Assembly: GCA_951406725.2 (NCBI GenBank)
Contig: OX597820.1
Location: 112,468,001 to 112,532,000, forward strand
DNA length: 64,000 nt
DNA from: Octopus vulgaris
Taxonomy: Eukaryota
Direction of reading: 5' to 3'
Shown here: piece after piece, positions 14,032 to 62,249 of the stretch
Position numbering within the stretch: position 1 is the first letter of the stretch
Layout of the letters: the number at the start of each line of letters is the position of its first letter
Made by a program: the position numbers and the translations under genes
The notes under the pieces: generated by a model
What the model saw: only the letters and a program-made list of their open reading frames with translations
What the model was told of the DNA's origin: nothing
Database searches by the model: none

Positions 14032-14722
14032 GCCTGCTAACCAGCGCATCGATCAGTGCTTTTCCAGTAGCGCGGCGGCGCCAAAGCCATCGTTGGTAGC
14101 TCTGCATGCGGCCTGGGCTTGCCGTTGCCGCCACTCCCCATTGTGGCCGCGTCCGGCTGCCGCCCCCTCGCGGTGCAGTCGTGACATGGTTGCGGTGTCG
14201 GTTGCAGAGCGGCACTGGTGACTCGGTCGGCTTGGCCCGCATGAGCCCAGCAGTGGCACGCCGTCGCGTCTGGGCCAGTTGGTTGGTAAATGCAGCGCTT
14301 CTTAGAGGGACGGGCGGCAGAAAGCCGCATGAAGCAGAGCAATAACAGGTCTGTGATGCCCTTAGATGTCTGGGGCCGCACGCGCGCAACACTGGAGGTA
14401 TCAGTGGGCGCGTCTCCCTCGGCCCGAGAGGGTCGGGAAACCTCTGAACCACCTCCCGTGATAGGGATCGGGGCCTGGAACCAACCCCGTGAACGAGGAA
14501 TTCCCGGTAGGCGCGGGTCATCAGCCCGCGTCGATCACGTCCATGCCCTTTGTACACACCACCCGTCGTTACTACCAATCGAACGGTCCGGTGAAGTCCT
14601 CGGTTCTGGCTGACGAGTCCGCTTACACGTGGCGGCGTTCCGCACTGTCGTTGGTGCATTCTCTGATGGCCCGGAGAAGACAACCGAACCTGATCGCTTA
14701 CAGGAAGTAAATGTCGTAACAA
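14032..14722 (+). pseudogene. 18S rRNA pseudogene fragment (V7 to just short of the 3' end), antisense within a BMAL1 intron
   Basis: Universal SSU motifs CTTCTTAGAGGGAC, GCAATAACAGGTCTGTGATGCCCTTAGATG, GCCCTTTGTACACACC, GGAAGTAAAxGTCGTAACAA; ~250-nt GC-rich V7 insertion; substitutions at invariant sites (CCGCCC>CCACCC, AAAAGTC>AAATGTC); truncated on both sides; no ITS1. Confidence 0.95.
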
Positions 14723-14766: not shown

Positions 14767-14925
14767 TATAATCTATATTTTGTATCTTTTCATTTTTCTT
14801 GCTCACTTACATTCTGGTGTTTGCTAAATTTTCTTGAGAACATACCTTCCTTATTTGTAAGACCATAGTGGATCTTCTTCTAGCATAATGGATGTCCACT
14901 TACAGGTCATCCCTCTTATATGTAT
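14767..14925 (+). mobile_element. 3' part of a Penelope-like terminal repeat (family of the 54.3-54.7 kb element)
   Basis: Aligns by eye to 54513-54680 (shared TTTTCATTTxTCTTGC, TTTTCTTGAGAACA, TAGCATA..GxTGTCCACT, GTCATxCCTCT). Confidence 0.75.
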
Positions 14926-15054
14926 GTAATATAATTTTTTCTGAAACTTCAGATTTTTCAATATGTTAGACTACTGGTTTTAAATTGATATTAAATAAAT
15001 TAATATTCAATTGTTCACCCTTTTTATTTTAAATTTATATATATATATATATAT

Positions 15055-37027: not shown

Positions 37028-37204
37028 CTGATTTTCGTTTTTTATGGGAATGCTCAGCTTCAACATCTTTTTCTACCTTGACAGCGCTGGGAACAACGTC
37101 TGCAGATTTATTGACACATTTCATCCGACAGAAGAATGAGCGTCTGGCACCAGAGCAGAGTTGAGTGGGTTTCTGAGGTAGTTCTGTTCTCACTGGAAGC
37201 ATGG
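37028..37204 (-). CDS. ARNTL: BMAL1/cycle exon, PAS-A
   Basis: 177 nt, phase 1 to 1; (T)MLPVRTELPQKPTQLCSGARRSFFCRMKC...HKKRKS carries the BMAL1/CYC motif LCSGARRSFFCRMK. Confidence 0.96.
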
Positions 37205-41238: not shown

Positions 41239-41319
41239 AACGAGAGAGAGTGAGGGTGAGAGAGAGGTAAAGAATGTGAGAAAATAAAATGGTGTAAATT
41301 GGAAATAAAGAAGCCATAC

Positions 41320-41412
41320 CTGTGAAAAGTTTAACGTTCTCTTTACAGACTGTGAGACATATAGTATTTTGCCTCTATCACAGCTTACAACAAACAGGAA
41401 TCCATCAGCAGC
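41320..41412 (-). CDS. ARNTL: BMAL1/cycle exon, start of PAS-A (most 5' exon found in the window)
   Basis: AG/GT bounded, 93 nt; translates [31 protein letters not shown], matching vertebrate BMAL1 [23 protein letters not shown]. Confidence 0.96.
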
Positions 41413-44562: not shown

Positions 44563-44674
44563 TATATTTAATGTCCAACATATATTTTTTATTTTTATTC
44601 TCATATTTCCCTTTATACTTCCTATATCTCTCCCTTTCCAAAATAACTTCTTATACTGAACTCTACTATTTCCT

Positions 44675-44720
44675 TCTAAGATGATGGGATATCCTTTATA
44701 TCCCTGAAACAGCTGTAAGA
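44675..44720 (+). ncRNA. Degenerate hammerhead motif
   Basis: UCU aaGAUGA U GGGAUAU-CCUUU-AUAUCCC U GAA ACAGCUGU A^ AGA: perfect 7-bp stem II and palindromic stem III, but core CU replaced by AA. Confidence 0.6.
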
Positions 44721-45652
44721 CTATCATTTTCTTTAGAAATGTCCCAGAAATTTCACACTGCTTTGGTTTTGTTATCTCATTTCATTTAACATATACATGC
44801 TCCCACATGGTTCATGTTAGAATCCTCACTCATACTATTATTGAGCCAGGAGTCTAACAACAGTCCTTCTAGAGCACTTACATAGCCTTACCTGCCTTTT
44901 GGGTCTTCTGGATACCAAAACCTCACACACACACACACACACACATATATACACACAAACAGAGAGAGCTTAGATATAAACATATATATATATAGAAAGA
45001 GTGAGAGAGAGAGAGATTAGATATAAATATATATATATACGTACACACACAGATATATATATATATATACACACATACACAGATATGGATGTATACACAC
45101 GCACACACATATAAACATATAAATATATACATATATCTGCAATACAAGGTATGGATAGGCAGCATAAAGCAGTGTCTCTCCAGACTAAAACTATAAATAT
45201 TAATAATATAAATATTAATTATTAATCTGGAAAAAAAAATGATTTCCAGTTCACTGTATGAATGTTAATTTAATGAAAGGAATTCAGTGTGTAATTCAAT
45301 AAATGATTACTCTATTGATGTGAGACAGACACAATTTCCACAGTCTTTCAAGTTCAGTTTATAAAACTACATGCACAGCTTATTAAATCCATATGCTGTG
45401 ATTACATCTCCAGAATGAATGAAATGTAAGTGTATGGAAAGCAGAAATTACTCTGCTTTCTTTCTGTATCAATACAGTATGATCAGTGCATGTGTGTGTG
45501 CATGTGTGTGTGTGCGTGTGTGTGTAGTTATATTGAAATAATGAGTGCATGTATGTGTGTTACAGTGAAAGGTTGAGTGGGTTGGGGATGCATACAAACC
45601 ACTGAATATTTTCATTCCTACTGATACACACACACACACACACACACACAAT

Positions 45653-51902: not shown

Positions 51903-54438
51903 GCGTACGAACTAGTCATAGCTAGACATGGTTCATGGTAATATACATATTTATACACAATATCACAAGTAATACACAGTAATACGAAAGACATACTTAC
52001 ACACACATACACACTGATACCAACACAAACAGCTTACACATTTAGTAACACACATAAACACATATGCATACCCTTGTACATACAAACATATGAACACACA
52101 TATGTATACATGCAAATAGATAGCTACTAACTGTCAGAGAACATATATACATATATATATATATACACATACAGGCATACGTACATACATACATATATAC
52201 ATACATGCATATATATATGCTTACATATATATATATCCTTGTATGTATATATAATACACACACACACACACACACTCACACACACGCACACACACACGCA
52301 CACACATACACACACACACACACACACATATATACGCATAGTAAGAAATACTTACAGACAGTGCCCTGGAGCTACATGAAAACAAAACATAGCAAAAACA
52401 CGCATGCACACATACACATATACACTCACAGACACATGCACACACAAACACACATACACGCAAACACATGCACACCATCACATTGAGATTTTCATATAAG
52501 AGTGAACAATAATACAAACAGAAATATCAACATAGCTAACAACACACCCCAAAATATATATGCAAGCATATATGCAGACATATCTACACATACAAATATA
52601 TACCAAATGCTCATATATCATACATAGACACTCACATAGACACAGGGAGCCATATAGTAAAACAGAAACACACACACACACACACATGTAGTAATATACT
52701 AAAACACCCAGATACAGTGACACACCACATACCAAAACACACACATATACATATATGTATAATGACATACAAAAACACATACATACGGACATAGATGTAT
52801 TATAATCACATGCAAAACACACATACATGCACTGACATATACAGTAACAGTAAAACCTCACACATACGTAGACGTATTGATGCTTACAAAAACACTCAAA
52901 TACAAACATTAACAGTAAAACACACACATGTAAAAGCAAACACACATATGGACACAAATGGTCACAGTGTAACACACACATAGATATACATACAAATGCA
53001 CATATAAACTGATGAGGTGGGGTGGAGGAGGAAAAGTAGAATGATGGAAGAAAGAAGCAATTATCACCTGTGGTGTTCCTGTCCACCCCACCCCCTGCTA
53101 CTGTCACCCCTCTCTCTCTCTCTCTCTCTCGAATCTCTGCAATAATAGCACTGCCATTTCTGAAACTATCTCCATGCTATATTGCACCTTGTTTAGGTGT
53201 GTGTGTATGTGTATGTGTGTGTGTGTTTGTGTGTGTGTGTGTGGAAATAAAAGAGAAACATTCAGAGGTACATAAGGATAAAAATTATCTGACTTCTCTG
53301 AACACACACATTCACACGCACACACACACACACACACACATGCACATGCACACACACACACACATGCACAAATACATACAAACATAGTCAGAGCTTTGCT
53401 TTTATCTCAAATTAGTGCTTATGATGTGTAATATATACACACAAACACACATATATATACACACAAACACACACACATACATGCATTTATATATGTGTAT
53501 GCATACATGCATGCACACACACACACACATATCATCATCATCGTTTTAACAGTCATTTTTGCATGCTTGGATGGGTTAGACAGAAATTGTTGAAGCAGAT
53601 TTTTTTACAGCAGGATGCCCTTCCTGTTGCCAACCCTCACATGTTTCCAAGTTAGGTAATATTTTCTCCATGCCAAGACATGTTTTCAAGGAAGACTGAA
53701 AATGAAGGACATGGCTTGTAAGTCAGTGACGCTTGACAGAATTGAAGATGACAGGCACATACATATATACATGAACCCATAGAGATACACACCCAAATGT
53801 AAATATGTATGTATACATGTGTATGTGTGTGCGTGTATATATATATATACTCTTTTACTCTTTTACTTGTTTTAGTCATTTTGACTATGGCCATGCTGGA
53901 GCACCGCCTTTAGTCGACCAAATCGACCCCGGGACTTATTCTTTGTAAGCCCAGTACTTATTCTATCGGTCTCTTTTGTTGAACCGCTAAGTGACGGGGA
54001 CGTAAATACACCAGCATCGGTTGTCAAGCAATGCTAGGGGGACAAACACAGACACACAAACACACACACATATATATATATACATATATACGACAGGCTT
54101 CTTTCAGTTTCCATCTACCAAATCCACTCACAAGGCTTTGGTTGGCCCGGGGCTATAGCAGAAGACACTTGCCCAAGATGCCACGCAGTGGGACTGAACC
54201 TGGAACCATGTGGTTGGTTAGCAAGCTACTTACTACACAGCCACTCCTGCGCCTATATATATAATTTATTTAAATTGGCTGTGGTAATTTAACTGCAGAT
54301 TAATTTCCGACCTCAGAGCGCCAAAGTGAAGACATTTGAAAAATACACCCAAATATAATTTGTAGAACTTTATACATGTTCGATTTCGGTTGAGCATTCT
54401 GTATCTAGTTCTGGAAATTGTGTTTTGTAAGTGACAGA

Positions 54439-54511
54439 CTATGCTGATGATCTTGCAGATATTTGCATGTTTATATACGTAAATATTAACAAGTGAAACC
54501 ATGGTACATAG
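54439..54511 (+). ncRNA. Type-I hammerhead ribozyme motif, family B, intact core
   Basis: Stem I CUAUG/CAUAG; CUGAUGA; long stem II (CUUG...CAAG plus extended hairpin); GAAA; palindromic stem III ACCAUGGU; GUA^ cleavage predicted after 54506. Confidence 0.88.
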
Positions 54512-54676
54512 GTAATCGTTTTTTATTTCGTATATTTTCATTTGTCTTGCATATCTTTACATTTTGGCATTTTGCTGAGATTTTTTTCTTGAGAACACAT
54601 TCTTCGTGGTAATGACAATTTTACGTCTATGTTTAGCATATAGGGTGTCCACTGTAGTCGTCATTCCTCTAAATTT

Positions 54677-54741
<65 letters not shown>

Positions 54742-54945
54742 TAATGTAAACAAGAAAAATAGAACTCAAAATATGAGTATATGTATATTTTTATTAATGT
54801 TTGGCAGAAGCAACGGAGTGATTCAAGGGCTGAGAGTTTTATGCGTTGGCACTCATCAAAGTTTGACAAGTGCCGACACATGAAACTCTTGGACCTTGTG
54901 TCATTCTGTTACTTCTACTAAACATTAATATGTATATAGATATAC

Positions 54946-55470: not shown

Positions 55471-55515
<45 letters not shown>

Positions 55516-55536
55516 TACGAAATAAAAAACGATTAC

Positions 55537-55609
55537 CTATGTACCATGGTTTCACTTGTTAATATTTACGTATATAAACATGCAAATATCTGCAAGATCA
55601 TCAGCATAG
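55537..55609 (-). ncRNA. Type-I hammerhead ribozyme motif, family B, identical inverted copy on the BMAL1 sense strand
   Basis: Reverse complement of 54439-54511. Confidence 0.88.
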
Positions 55610-56118
55610 TCTGTCACTTACAAAACACAATTTCCAGAACTAGATACAGAATGCTCAACCGAAATCGAACATGTATAAAGTTCTACAAATTATATTTGGG
55701 TGTATTTTTCAAATGTCTTCACTATATCATCATCGTTTAACATCCACTTTCCATGCTAGCATGGGTTGGACAGTTTGACTATGGGCTGGCGAACCAGATG
55801 GCTGCACCAGGCTCCAGTCTTGATCTGGCAGAGTTTCTACAGCTGGATGCCATTCCTAACGCCAACCACTCTGAGAGTGTAGTGGGTGCTTTTACGTACC
55901 ACCGGCACGGGGGCCAGTCAGGCGGTACTGGCAACGACCTCGCTCAAATTTTTTTTTGTTACACATGCCAACGGCACAGGTGCCAGTAAGGTGTTGCTGG
56001 TAATGATCCCGCTTGAATGGTGCCTCCTACATGCCACCGGCATGGAAGCCAGTTAGCCGCTCTGGCAACAATCATGCTCAGATGGTGCTCTAAACACCCT
56101 ACTAGCACAGGGCACAAG

Positions 56119-60978: not shown

Positions 60979-62249
60979 CGAGGGGTGTTTGAAAAGTTTT
61001 GAGCCTAACCTAGAAACGGGCTGCTAGGTAGCTGAAACAATTTTTTCTGGTAAGTACAGTCTTTTCAGAGTATTCTTGATCATTTTCATGATTCTGATAT
61101 TTTAATTTTTTTTGTTTCAGATTTTTGAATAAACAAGTGTCGAGGTTACAAGGAAAATGGAGAAAACAACAGTGTATCATGCTGTCATAAAATACCTTCA
61201 TTTGAAAGGCATGACTCCATCAGACATCCATGAAGATAAGGTGAGAACCTTAACAGACAATGCTCCTTCATATGCAACAGTCAAACGCTGGGTAAATGAA
61301 TTCAAACGTGGCAGGGAGAGTGTGGAAGATAATCCCACACCAGGGAGGCCTCCAACTGCAACCACCGAGGACAACATTGACCTTGCTCTTGGTATGATAA
61401 TGTAAGATCAACAAATATCATGTCGCCAAATAGCTGAGAGACTGGACATCTCAAATGAAAGAGCTAACAGCATTGTGACAAAAGAACTTGGATTCTCAAA
61501 GGTTTCTGCAGGGTGGGTCCCTCGCTTTGTAACTAAACTCCTGAACAGAAAAGCATTAGGTGCACTTTGTCCACAAGCAATCTGTAACTGTTTGAAGCCG
61601 ATGGAGAGAATTTTCTTGCTCATTTCACTACTATGGATGAAAGTTGGGTCCATCAGCCTGAAACCAAAGAACAATCAAAGCAGTGGAAGCTCACATCTTG
61701 TCCTACTCCAAAGAAGGCCAGGGTCATTCCTTCAGCTGGAAAGGTCATGGTGTCTGTTTTTTTGGATTCTCAAGGTGTCTTGCTGATCAATTACCTTGAA
61801 AAGGGTCACACCATGACAGGGCTGTATTATTCTCAGCTACTGAAATGCCCCCGAGAAGTAATCAAAGAAAAAAGGCCGGGAATGCTCACCAGAGGAGTCC
61901 TTTTTTCATCACAACAATGCTCCAGCCCATTCGTCAGTGGTTGCCATGGCAACAATTCGTATTTGTGGATACGAACTTGTTCCCCATCTGCCTTATTCAC
62001 CAGACTTATCCCCCTCTGACTTTCATCTATTCCCCAAAATGAAAAAAAGCCCTGGCTGATCACCATTTTGCCAGTGACGTTTCTTGGAGTCACAAACAGA
62101 AGGGTTCTTCTACGCTGGGATAATGGCACTTCAGCACCGCTGGAAAAAGTGTTCAGCCATCGAGGGGGACTCTGTTGAAAAATAAATCATCAGAAGTCTT
62201 GTACCATGTTTTGTTCTTTTGAGGCTCAAGATTTTTCAGACACCCCTCG
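60979..62249 (+). mobile_element. Full-length but defective mariner transposon
   Basis: TA target duplication at 60977-60978 and 62250-62251; ~28-bp TIRs CGAGGGGTGTTTGAAAAGTTTTGAGCCT / AGGCTCAAGATTTTTCAGACACCCCTCG; transposase remnants from 61157 with WVPR, MDESWVH, YSPDLSPSDFHLFP; stops and frameshifts. Confidence 0.95.

What the first reader, a model, noticed from the sequence alone, without database searches (positions are those of the whole stretch)
54439..54511. Best intact ribozyme candidate: family B hammerhead with long stem II and a U.U pair at its base
Seen: CUAUG-CUGAUGA-U-CUUG[CA GAUAUUUGCAUGU UUAU AUACGUAAAUAUU AA]CAAG-U-GAA-ACCAUGGU-A^CAUAG. Stem I is a perfect 5 bp, the core is complete, stem III is an 8-nt palindrome and the triplet is GUA. 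The canonical G10.1-C11.1 pair is replaced by U.U. The unrelated motif at 44675 has the same U...U closure, so it may be a real architectural variant rather than decay (inference).
Basis: partly seen in the sequence, partly recalled or inferred. Interest (0 to 1): 0.78.

Follow-up and report, generated by a model that had tools for sequence, protein, structure and literature searches.

The report
Retrozyme hammerhead lost and regained G-C
This is a real hammerhead (self-cutting RNA) motif inside a 534-base jumping repeat with hundreds of copies in this animal genome; its odd U·U pair is shared by most copies, likely arose from the normal G-C pair and later changed back, and would probably slow rather than abolish cutting, which nobody has tested.

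Summary
The motif is exactly as described. It is the type I, palindromic-stem-III (dimer-type) hammerhead of a 534-nt non-coding, Penelope-style repeat (retrozyme-like): 314 exact-core matches in the genome, 0 in the control. U10.1·U11.1 is not private: 74 of 86 and 27 of 46 copies in two samples not chosen on the core. Nor is it a fixed architecture. The copies form one ladder: G-C (older sister family, oldest clade), then U·U (most copies), then G·U, then G-C (youngest). Core and loop letters never change along the ladder, and stems I-III covary during the U·U phase, so the fold stayed under selection. Cleavage is not shown, and insertion ends do not pile up at the cut site (1 of 98). Natural U10.1·U11.1 is already published (Perreault 2011). 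The 44675 family is mostly A·A there, so it is not independent support. This copy is a truncated dead end with a perfect 213-nt inverted duplicate 1 kb away, in an intron of a BMAL1-like gene. The scan noted similar mismatch and long-stem-II hammerheads elsewhere. New variant of a known kind.

The parts
54271..54684 (+). 5'-truncated copy (about 420 of 534 nt) of the non-coding hammerhead repeat (family B); its 3' end runs into a (TA)n tract at the family's commonest 3' end point
   Evidence: blastn to the 534-nt unit, 89.6%; unit length from tandem copies L014/L015; (TA)n at 54679-54739
54439..54511 (+). type I hammerhead motif; core 54444-54450 and 54495-54498; predicted cut between 54506 and 54507 (GUA)
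   Evidence: sequence; descriptor 2 hits vs 0 in 100 shuffles; covariation
54451..54451 (+). U10.1, opposite U11.1 at 54494; G10.1-C11.1 in the oldest and youngest subfamilies
54452..54493 (+). long stem II: 4 bp, CA/AA internal loop, 13-position distal helix (A·C mismatch 54467/54478 specific to this copy), 4-nt loop
54498..54505 (+). 8-nt palindrome (stem III); predicted to pair between two ribozymes (-11.2 kcal/mol) and not within one
   Evidence: palindrome kept at 8, 9 and 10 nt with compensatory changes
54429..54521 (+). extended stem I: distal 6 bp (54429-34/54516-21) and 4x4 loop CAGA/GUAA; candidate tertiary partner of the stem II internal loop (inferred)
   Evidence: loop majority letters unchanged in all four groups
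55511..55723 (-). perfect (213 of 213) inverted duplicate of 54325-54537 with a second identical hammerhead at 55609-55537; lies between a (TA)n tract and another repeat; same sense as the host gene
41317..41412 (-). context only: PAS-A exon of a BMAL1/cycle-like gene; a bHLH exon lies about 79.7 kb in window coordinates (beyond the window), so the hammerheads sit between these exons, most likely in an intron
   Evidence: phmmer to BMAL1 chains, E 3e-10; short-motif scan of the window plus neighbouring DNA

Best explanation
The motif is the type I hammerhead of a 534-nt non-coding repeat family that is likely a retrozyme copied by Penelope-like element (PLE) enzymes, and its U10.1·U11.1 pair is an inherited family state that likely replaced G-C, was tolerated during much of the family's spread, and later reverted through G·U to G-C. 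Shown: sequence, copy number, unit structure, covariation, ladder tree. Inferred: tandem or multimeric transcripts pair two ribozymes through the stem III palindrome and cut slowly at GUA. Uncleaved multimers or re-ligated circles are then reverse-transcribed from two preferred points (about unit positions 284 and 364-374) into (TA)n-type microsatellites, with random 5' ends and inverted 5' pieces. The conserved CAGA/GUAA and CA/AA loops likely dock and help offset the weak U·U pair. This particular copy is probably inert: it is sub-unit length, has one ribozyme per strand, and any transcript through the locus would fold it into a 213-bp duplex with its inverted duplicate.
For: 314 vs 0 core matches; 546 vs 0 for a 3'-flank motif. 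534-nt cyclic unit with copies longer than one unit (15 of 98). 235 of 287 3' ends fall at two points, and 197 of those 235 are followed by microsatellite, against 14% background. No PLE-like ORF was seen joined to the unit in the 70 longest of 118 filtered ORFs printed for the family's loci (judged by eye). An abundant autonomous RT-GIY-YIG-type PLE family exists in the genome (GIY-YIG recognised by recall). U·U in 74 of 86 and 27 of 46; U11.1 in 93-96% of depth and no 10.1 variant row at 4% or more in runs of two other organism labels. Covariation: 95 two-sided cells vs 39 shuffled, 0 of 500. Among 137 U·U copies, 11 of 12 common alternative pair states stay paired, three of them by double change. 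0 of 12 core and 0 of 12 loop majority letters differ between the older sister family and the youngest clade, against 79 of 327 flank letters. Tip length falls along the ladder (rho -0.37, p 7e-8; youngest 0.037 vs U·U phase 0.056, p 1.6e-6). The sister family has G10.1 with C or U (13 of 17 parsed) and roots the tree in the G-C clade. Perreault 2011 reports natural U10.1-U11.1 and cites it as the best-tolerated mispair.
Against: No cleavage data. 5' ends do not pile up at the cut site: 1 of 98 exactly, against about 0.9 per base just downstream; only 2 of 4 hits of a targeted pattern were true cut-site ends. Core conservation alone is weak statistically (about p 0.04-0.08 per test). Tool control (a) ignores relatedness, and some U·G states are CpG decay. 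Oldest clade vs U·U tip lengths differ only at p 0.07, and the root rests on FastTree support of 0.79 for the ingroup. The autonomous PLE examined shares no sequence with the unit, so the helper is not identified.
Confidence: 0.72

Rival explanations
1. The U·U ribozyme was catalytically dead or nearly so. The family spread from uncleaved multimeric transcripts, and the fold was kept for another reason, such as recognition by PLE protein or RNA stability.
For: About 80 of 98 sampled copies read through the cut site and there is no 5'-end pile-up there. Metazoan PLE hammerheads cut poorly in vitro, and non-cleavage roles are not excluded (PMC4209133). Reversion to G-C in the youngest clades suggests U·U was worse.
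Against: The catalytic core and GUA triplet are unchanged through the U·U phase, and the palindrome was repeatedly rebuilt by double changes. Read-through is also expected from re-ligated circles. U·U is reported as the best-tolerated mispair.
Confidence: 0.13
2. U·U is a selected attenuator or a true architectural variant: slower cutting leaves more-than-unit templates and so raised copy number.
For: Most sampled copies belong to the U·U phase (158 of 198 on the tree). U·U also appears as a 2-copy clade in the sister family. Non-paired 10.1/11.1 is the norm in family C.
Against: Only about 12% of sites changed across the U·U phase (50 of 427), so two given sites stay unchanged by chance about 77% of the time. 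The lineage later went back to G-C. The sample is biased toward U·U by its flank anchor.
Confidence: 0.08
3. The two U's do not pair. They are insertions on each side (the known extra base after A9 plus one before G12), and the C-G pair below acts as 10.1-11.1, restoring the 4-pair spacing of the older sister family.
For: The sister family has 4 pairs between A9 and the CA/AA loop, and the U·U form has 4 Watson-Crick pairs plus the U's. An extra base after A9 is typical of PLE hammerheads.
Against: The two positions change together to G-C at both ends of the ladder, with G·U intermediates, and 5-pair G-C forms exist. C10.1-G11.1 would be the inverted orientation, recalled as poor for activity (own knowledge).
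Confidence: 0.05
4. The minus-strand duplicate is a host-recruited intronic ribozyme acting on the BMAL1-like pre-mRNA.
For: 55609-55537 is sense to the gene and lies between its bHLH and PAS-A exons.
Against: There is no same-strand partner for the palindrome; the perfect complement follows 973 nt later (-359 kcal/mol duplex); the duplication is very recent or an assembly error.
Confidence: 0.02

Closest known systems
Animal non-LTR retrozymes (Cervera & de la Peña 2020, PMC7229834; Li, Clavereau & Pollet, bioRxiv 10.64898/2026.07.22.740005)
   Same: Short, AT-rich, non-coding repeat unit with one type I hammerhead per unit; species-specific sequence; coexists with autonomous PLEs; mollusc examples known (Mytilus, 350-390 nt).
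   Different: 534-nt unit, mostly dispersed permuted partial copies with inverted 5' pieces rather than long arrays; long two-part stem II; U·U at 10.1/11.1 in most copies. circRNA and cleavage not shown here. The preprint's sampled species (parts read) include no mollusc.
PLE-associated hammerheads with small palindromic helix III (Cervera & de la Peña 2014, PMC4209133; Lünse et al. 2017, title seen only)
   Same: Type I, short proximal stem I, larger-than-usual helix II, palindromic helix III predicted to work as a dimer.
   Different: That paper's consensus has an extra base after A9 and a highly conserved G10.1-C11.1; family B has neither in its U·U phase, and it has an extended stem I with a conserved 4x4 loop.
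Natural U10.1-U11.1 hammerhead variant (Perreault et al. 2011, PMC3088659)
   Same: Same mispair at the base of stem II, described there as natural and as the best-tolerated mispair (citing Ruffner 1990).
   Different: There it is a rare variant. Here it is the majority state of a several-hundred-copy animal family with dated G-C, G·U and U·U subfamilies.
EN+ Penelope-like element insertion pattern (Craig et al. 2021, PMC8557442)
   Same: 5' truncation, partial tandems, inverted 5' pieces and microsatellite bias.
   Different: No ORF seen attached; helper element not identified.

Membership tests
Hammerhead ribozyme, type I | CUGANGA and GAAA boxes and NUH triplet in a three-way junction closed by stem I | tested here: met
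   0 of 12 core majority letters change across the family
Hammerhead ribozyme, type I | Helices I, II and III supported by covariation | tested here: met
   (95 vs 39 two-sided cells; slid controls 10-24)
Hammerhead ribozyme, type I | Paired 10.1-11.1 (usually G-C) | tested here: not met
   U·U in this copy and in most paralogues. Usual rather than absolute: a natural U-U exception is published
Hammerhead ribozyme, type I | Match to an Rfam hammerhead model | tested here: not met
   no hammerhead family among 6 matches at E<=10 on 54380-54560
Hammerhead ribozyme, type I | Site-specific self-cleavage after H17 | not testable with these tools
   indirect test (5' ends at the cut site) inconclusive: 1 of 98, 2 of 4 targeted hits
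PLE-type dimeric hammerhead | Short palindromic helix III, unstable in the monomer | tested here: met
   monomer pair probability 0.0, duplex -11.2 kcal/mol; palindrome kept in all subfamilies
PLE-type dimeric hammerhead | Extra base between A9 and G10.1 | tested here: not met
   G-C subfamilies have G directly after A9
Non-LTR retrozyme | Short non-coding unit with one type I hammerhead, found as tandem or more-than-unit copies | tested here: met
   534-nt unit; tandem L014/L015; 15 of 98 copies over one unit
Non-LTR retrozyme | No own ORF (non-autonomous) | tested here: met
   no PLE-like ORF joined to the unit in the 70 longest of 118 ORFs printed, judged by eye; the unit closes on itself
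Non-LTR retrozyme | Expressed as linear and circular monomer RNA | not testable with these tools
   no run on record as RNA held the stretch; only contigs could be laid
PLE-mobilised element | Fixed 3' ends at microsatellites, variable 5' ends, inverted 5' pieces | tested here: met
PLE-mobilised element | Sequence link to an autonomous PLE pLTR | tested here: inconclusive
   one autonomous family checked (12 loci, flanks of 1.5 kb), no similarity; other PLE families not checked

The most novel reading that the evidence does not exclude
The family is a dated natural mutagenesis series of the hammerhead's most conserved stem II pair (G-C, U·U, G·U, G-C) in a build where two conserved internal loops (CAGA/GUAA in stem I, CA/AA inside a long stem II) form an undescribed tertiary contact that keeps a U·U ribozyme active; the weakened U·U phase was when the element made many of its copies, so ribozyme speed tunes retrotransposition.
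Probability: 0.2. Interest if true: 0.7.

Novelty: new variant of a known kind. Interest (0 to 1): 0.42.

Why it matters
What hammerheads do for Penelope-type elements is still open. This family gives time-ordered natural versions of one ribozyme that differ at 10.1/11.1 in an otherwise conserved fold. One can therefore measure how much cleavage speed a retrozyme needs in order to spread, and whether an internal loop inside a long stem II can replace the usual loop-loop contact. It also shows that descriptor searches requiring a paired 10.1-11.1 (as in Perreault 2011) and Rfam models miss whole animal families (at least 314 and 648 exact-pattern matches for families B and C here). The U·U pair itself is not new, and this copy is probably inert.

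Tried and rejected
Chance motif: rejected. Private decay: rejected. U·U as a trait shared with 44675: rejected; that family is mostly A·A. Rfam: no hammerhead match (none in the 150 of 265 rows shown). Cut-site footprint: no pile-up; 16 of 98 ends lie in the 18 bases 3' of the cut, which may reflect the T-run or the base of stem I, and I do not count it as evidence. Expression: no RNA holder listed. Runs X1, X3 and X14 are only guessed to be RNA and are contigs, so they are not used for expression; small-share runs that I did not lay are not used. Autonomous partner: a PLE fragment near L237 led to a large young family with no similarity to the unit. RNAalifold inside a script returned no structure, so pairs were counted on a named structure instead. 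An IQ-TREE run timed out and was replaced by FastTree. Lünse 2017 and Nelson & Uhlenbeck 2008 are not held. File 1 of the PMC4209133 supplements could not be searched, and bioRxiv supplements are closed; either may list similar variants.

Full report
OBSERVATION. The 73 nt at 54439-54511 read as stated. A hammerhead descriptor with 10.1/11.1 left free finds only this copy and an identical one on the minus strand, and nothing in 100 of 100 shuffles. The second copy lies in a perfect 213-nt inverted repeat, 54325-54537 / 55511-55723. Rfam gives no hammerhead match at E<=10, and folding energy is ordinary (z -1.21), so the support is comparative. The genome is a 2.8-Gb eukaryote; its repeats look octopus-like to me, which is recall and comes from no call.

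THE ELEMENT. The motif belongs to a repeat family: 1256 first-look candidates, 314 exact core-pattern matches vs 0 control, and 546 vs 0 for a 3'-flank motif. Tandem and more-than-unit copies define a 534-nt unit that closes on itself; 15 of 98 flank-selected copies exceed one unit. 5' ends are scattered and often carry an inverted piece. 235 of 287 3' ends fall at two points, and 197 of those are followed by microsatellite, against 14% at random. This is the insertion pattern described for endonuclease-bearing Penelope-like elements (PMC8557442, passages). I saw no PLE-like frame joined to the unit among the 70 longest of 118 filtered ORFs (by eye). One young autonomous PLE family with long frames is abundant in the genome (RVT_1 at E 8e-4) but shares no sequence with the unit in 12 loci. 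The window copy covers 54271-54684, about 420 nt.

THE FOLD IS UNDER SELECTION. On 99 copies (the window, 83 picked by flanks, 15 picked for G10.1; alignment), the named structure has 91.9% paired cells and 95 two-sided changes vs 39 in shuffles (0 of 500; slid controls 10-24). That control ignores relatedness. Double changes occur in stem I (U-A/C-G), distal stem II (two positions) and stem III, where the palindrome is kept at 8, 9 and 10 nt. Among the 137 U·U copies alone, 11 of 12 alternative pair states at 8% or more stay paired and three are double changes; some single U·G states are probably CpG decay. Between the older sister family and the youngest clade, 79 of 327 flank majority letters differ, but 0 of 12 core letters and 0 of 12 letters of the CAGA/GUAA and CA/AA loops; each alone is only about p 0.04. 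That these two loops dock is inference.

THE U·U PAIR. Two samples not chosen on the core: 74 U·U, 5 G-C, 3 U·C, 2 G·U and 2 other of 86 (the anchors exclude the youngest subfamilies, so this overstates U·U); and 27 U·U, 11 G-C, 3 G·U and 5 other of 46 parsable ribozymes among 98 sites (the other 52 were truncated or not parsed). All 51 genome matches with non-U at 10.1 split, by hand count, into 15 G-C, 18 G·U, 8 A and 10 C. In runs of two other organism labels U11.1 holds 93-96% of depth and no 10.1 variant reaches 4% (contigs, reference-biased). A tree of 198 unique copies (of 239 alignments), with both positions masked, is a single ladder: a short-stem G-C clade (12), a U·U phase (158 copies, 137 U·U, including the window copy), then G·U and G-C (28). 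Tip length falls along it (rho -0.37, p 7e-8); the last group is clearly youngest (0.037 vs 0.056, p 1.6e-6), while the first is only marginally older (p 0.07). An older sister family found by chance in L063 has G10.1 with C or U in 13 of 17 parsed copies, U·U in 2, and 5 of 22 unparsed. It roots the tree inside the G-C clade (107 of 198 ingroup copies used; FastTree support 0.79). The likeliest history is therefore G-C, then U·U, then G·U, then G-C. About 12% of sites changed across the U·U phase (50 of 427), so its persistence needs no selection for U·U; tolerance is enough.

THE 44675 ARGUMENT. That motif is a decayed copy of another family with 648 pattern matches vs 0. Of the first 100 listed, the junction reads A·A 69, A·G 19, U·U 6, A-U 3, and G·G, U-A and G·A 1 each (hand count), always above a G-C pair. 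This fits the PLE consensus CUGANGAH-G...C (supplement passage) with one extra base before G12, so it is a different phenomenon and not independent support for U·U.

MECHANISM. In the monomer, stem III has pair probability 0.0, while two palindromes pair at -11.2 kcal/mol, as for dimer-type PLE and newt hammerheads (PMC4209133). I infer slow cleavage in multimeric transcripts, circles or uncleaved multimers as templates, and PLE reverse transcriptase priming at microsatellite nicks. A test suggested by an earlier scan note gave no support: 1 of 98 5' ends falls exactly at the cut site, against about 0.9 per base just downstream, and about 80 of 98 copies read through it. A targeted pattern gave 4 hits, 2 of them true cut-site ends; two more such ends turned up in G·U-clade loci (L081, L098). 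Cleavage in vivo is neither shown nor excluded.

THIS COPY. It has an intact core but one private mismatch in distal stem II and two wobble changes in distal stem I. It lies between the bHLH and PAS-A exons of a minus-strand BMAL1-like gene: 54439 is antisense and 55609-55537 is sense. Either strand's transcript would contain both arms, a -359 kcal/mol duplex, so it is probably inert. The arms are identical while the copy is about 4% from its subfamily, so the duplication is far younger than the insertion, or an assembly error; I could not test which.

WHAT IS KNOWN. Perreault 2011 (PMC3088659; passages and section 8) reports natural U10.1-U11.1 and cites Ruffner 1990 (not read) for it being the best-tolerated mispair. 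Cervera 2014 (parts 1-2 of 4, plus supplement passages) covers PLE hammerheads with palindromic helix III. Cervera 2020 (PMC7229834; passages and section 14) and Li et al. (bioRxiv; parts 1-2 of 5) cover retrozymes as non-autonomous PLE derivatives. I also saw passages of PMC6765202 and PMC11014351. Lünse 2017 could not be read (title only). Searches listed no paper on this family or on a G-C/U·U/G-C series in an animal repeat; subscription papers are not covered. The scan has noted related cases before: a C·A 10.1/11.1 retrozyme in another genome and long-stem-II hammerheads elsewhere in this genome; a look-up with this sequence found no look-alike note.

VERDICT. A real hammerhead of a retrozyme-like family. 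U·U is inherited, tolerated and reversible rather than a new architecture, and activity is untested. New variant of a known kind; interest 0.42.

Noticed in passing
family C (window 44660-44730; L201-L210): At least 648 hammerheads with an unpaired A·A, A·G or U·U between the core and a G-C-closed stem II, with an 8-nt palindrome and GUA triplet. Either a non-paired 10.1/11.1 or an extra base before G12 on top of the usual PLE extra base; possibly odder than family B.
   Followed up: partly
window 54325-54537 / 55511-55723: Perfect 213-nt inverted duplication 973 nt apart, with the second arm at a (TA)n tract: a recent local re-insertion, template switch or assembly error. It would form long dsRNA (a possible editing substrate) in the BMAL1-like pre-mRNA.
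   Followed up: partly
window 41317-41412 (-), with further exons near 37145, 35813, 28799 and 16548; bHLH exon about 79.7 kb: BMAL1/cycle-like clock gene spanning the window on the minus strand.
   Followed up: partly
L134, L137, L150, L178 and relatives: The oldest family B clade has G10.1-C11.1 but a variable, often mismatched second pair (C-G in 5 of 12), as if a pair was inserted and repaired before U·U arose; the youngest clade shortened stem II again.
   Followed up: partly
window 3926(-), 4033(+), 19663(-), 19770(+), 25433(-): Family A minimal hammerheads with the usual extra base and G10.1-C11.1, two as head-to-head pairs.
   Followed up: no
window 14192-14722 (+): Divergent 18S rRNA fragments (Rfam SSU, E 1e-11), probably a pseudogene piece, next to an old 74% copy of the family B 3' region at 14776-14989.
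   Followed up: no
window 54840-54860 (-): Degenerate hammerhead-like box of another repeat between the two inverted arms.
   Followed up: no
L300-L311: Young, abundant autonomous Penelope-like family (4362 candidates, open frames up to about 1300 aa), often in inverted pairs.
   Followed up: partly
window 61406-62019 (+): Mariner-type transposase remnant (Transposase_1, E 5e-18).
   Followed up: no
L025-L030 (G000:C7:58.74-58.96 Mb): Six near-identical family B loci in three inverted 13-kb pairs: a segmental duplication.
   Followed up: no
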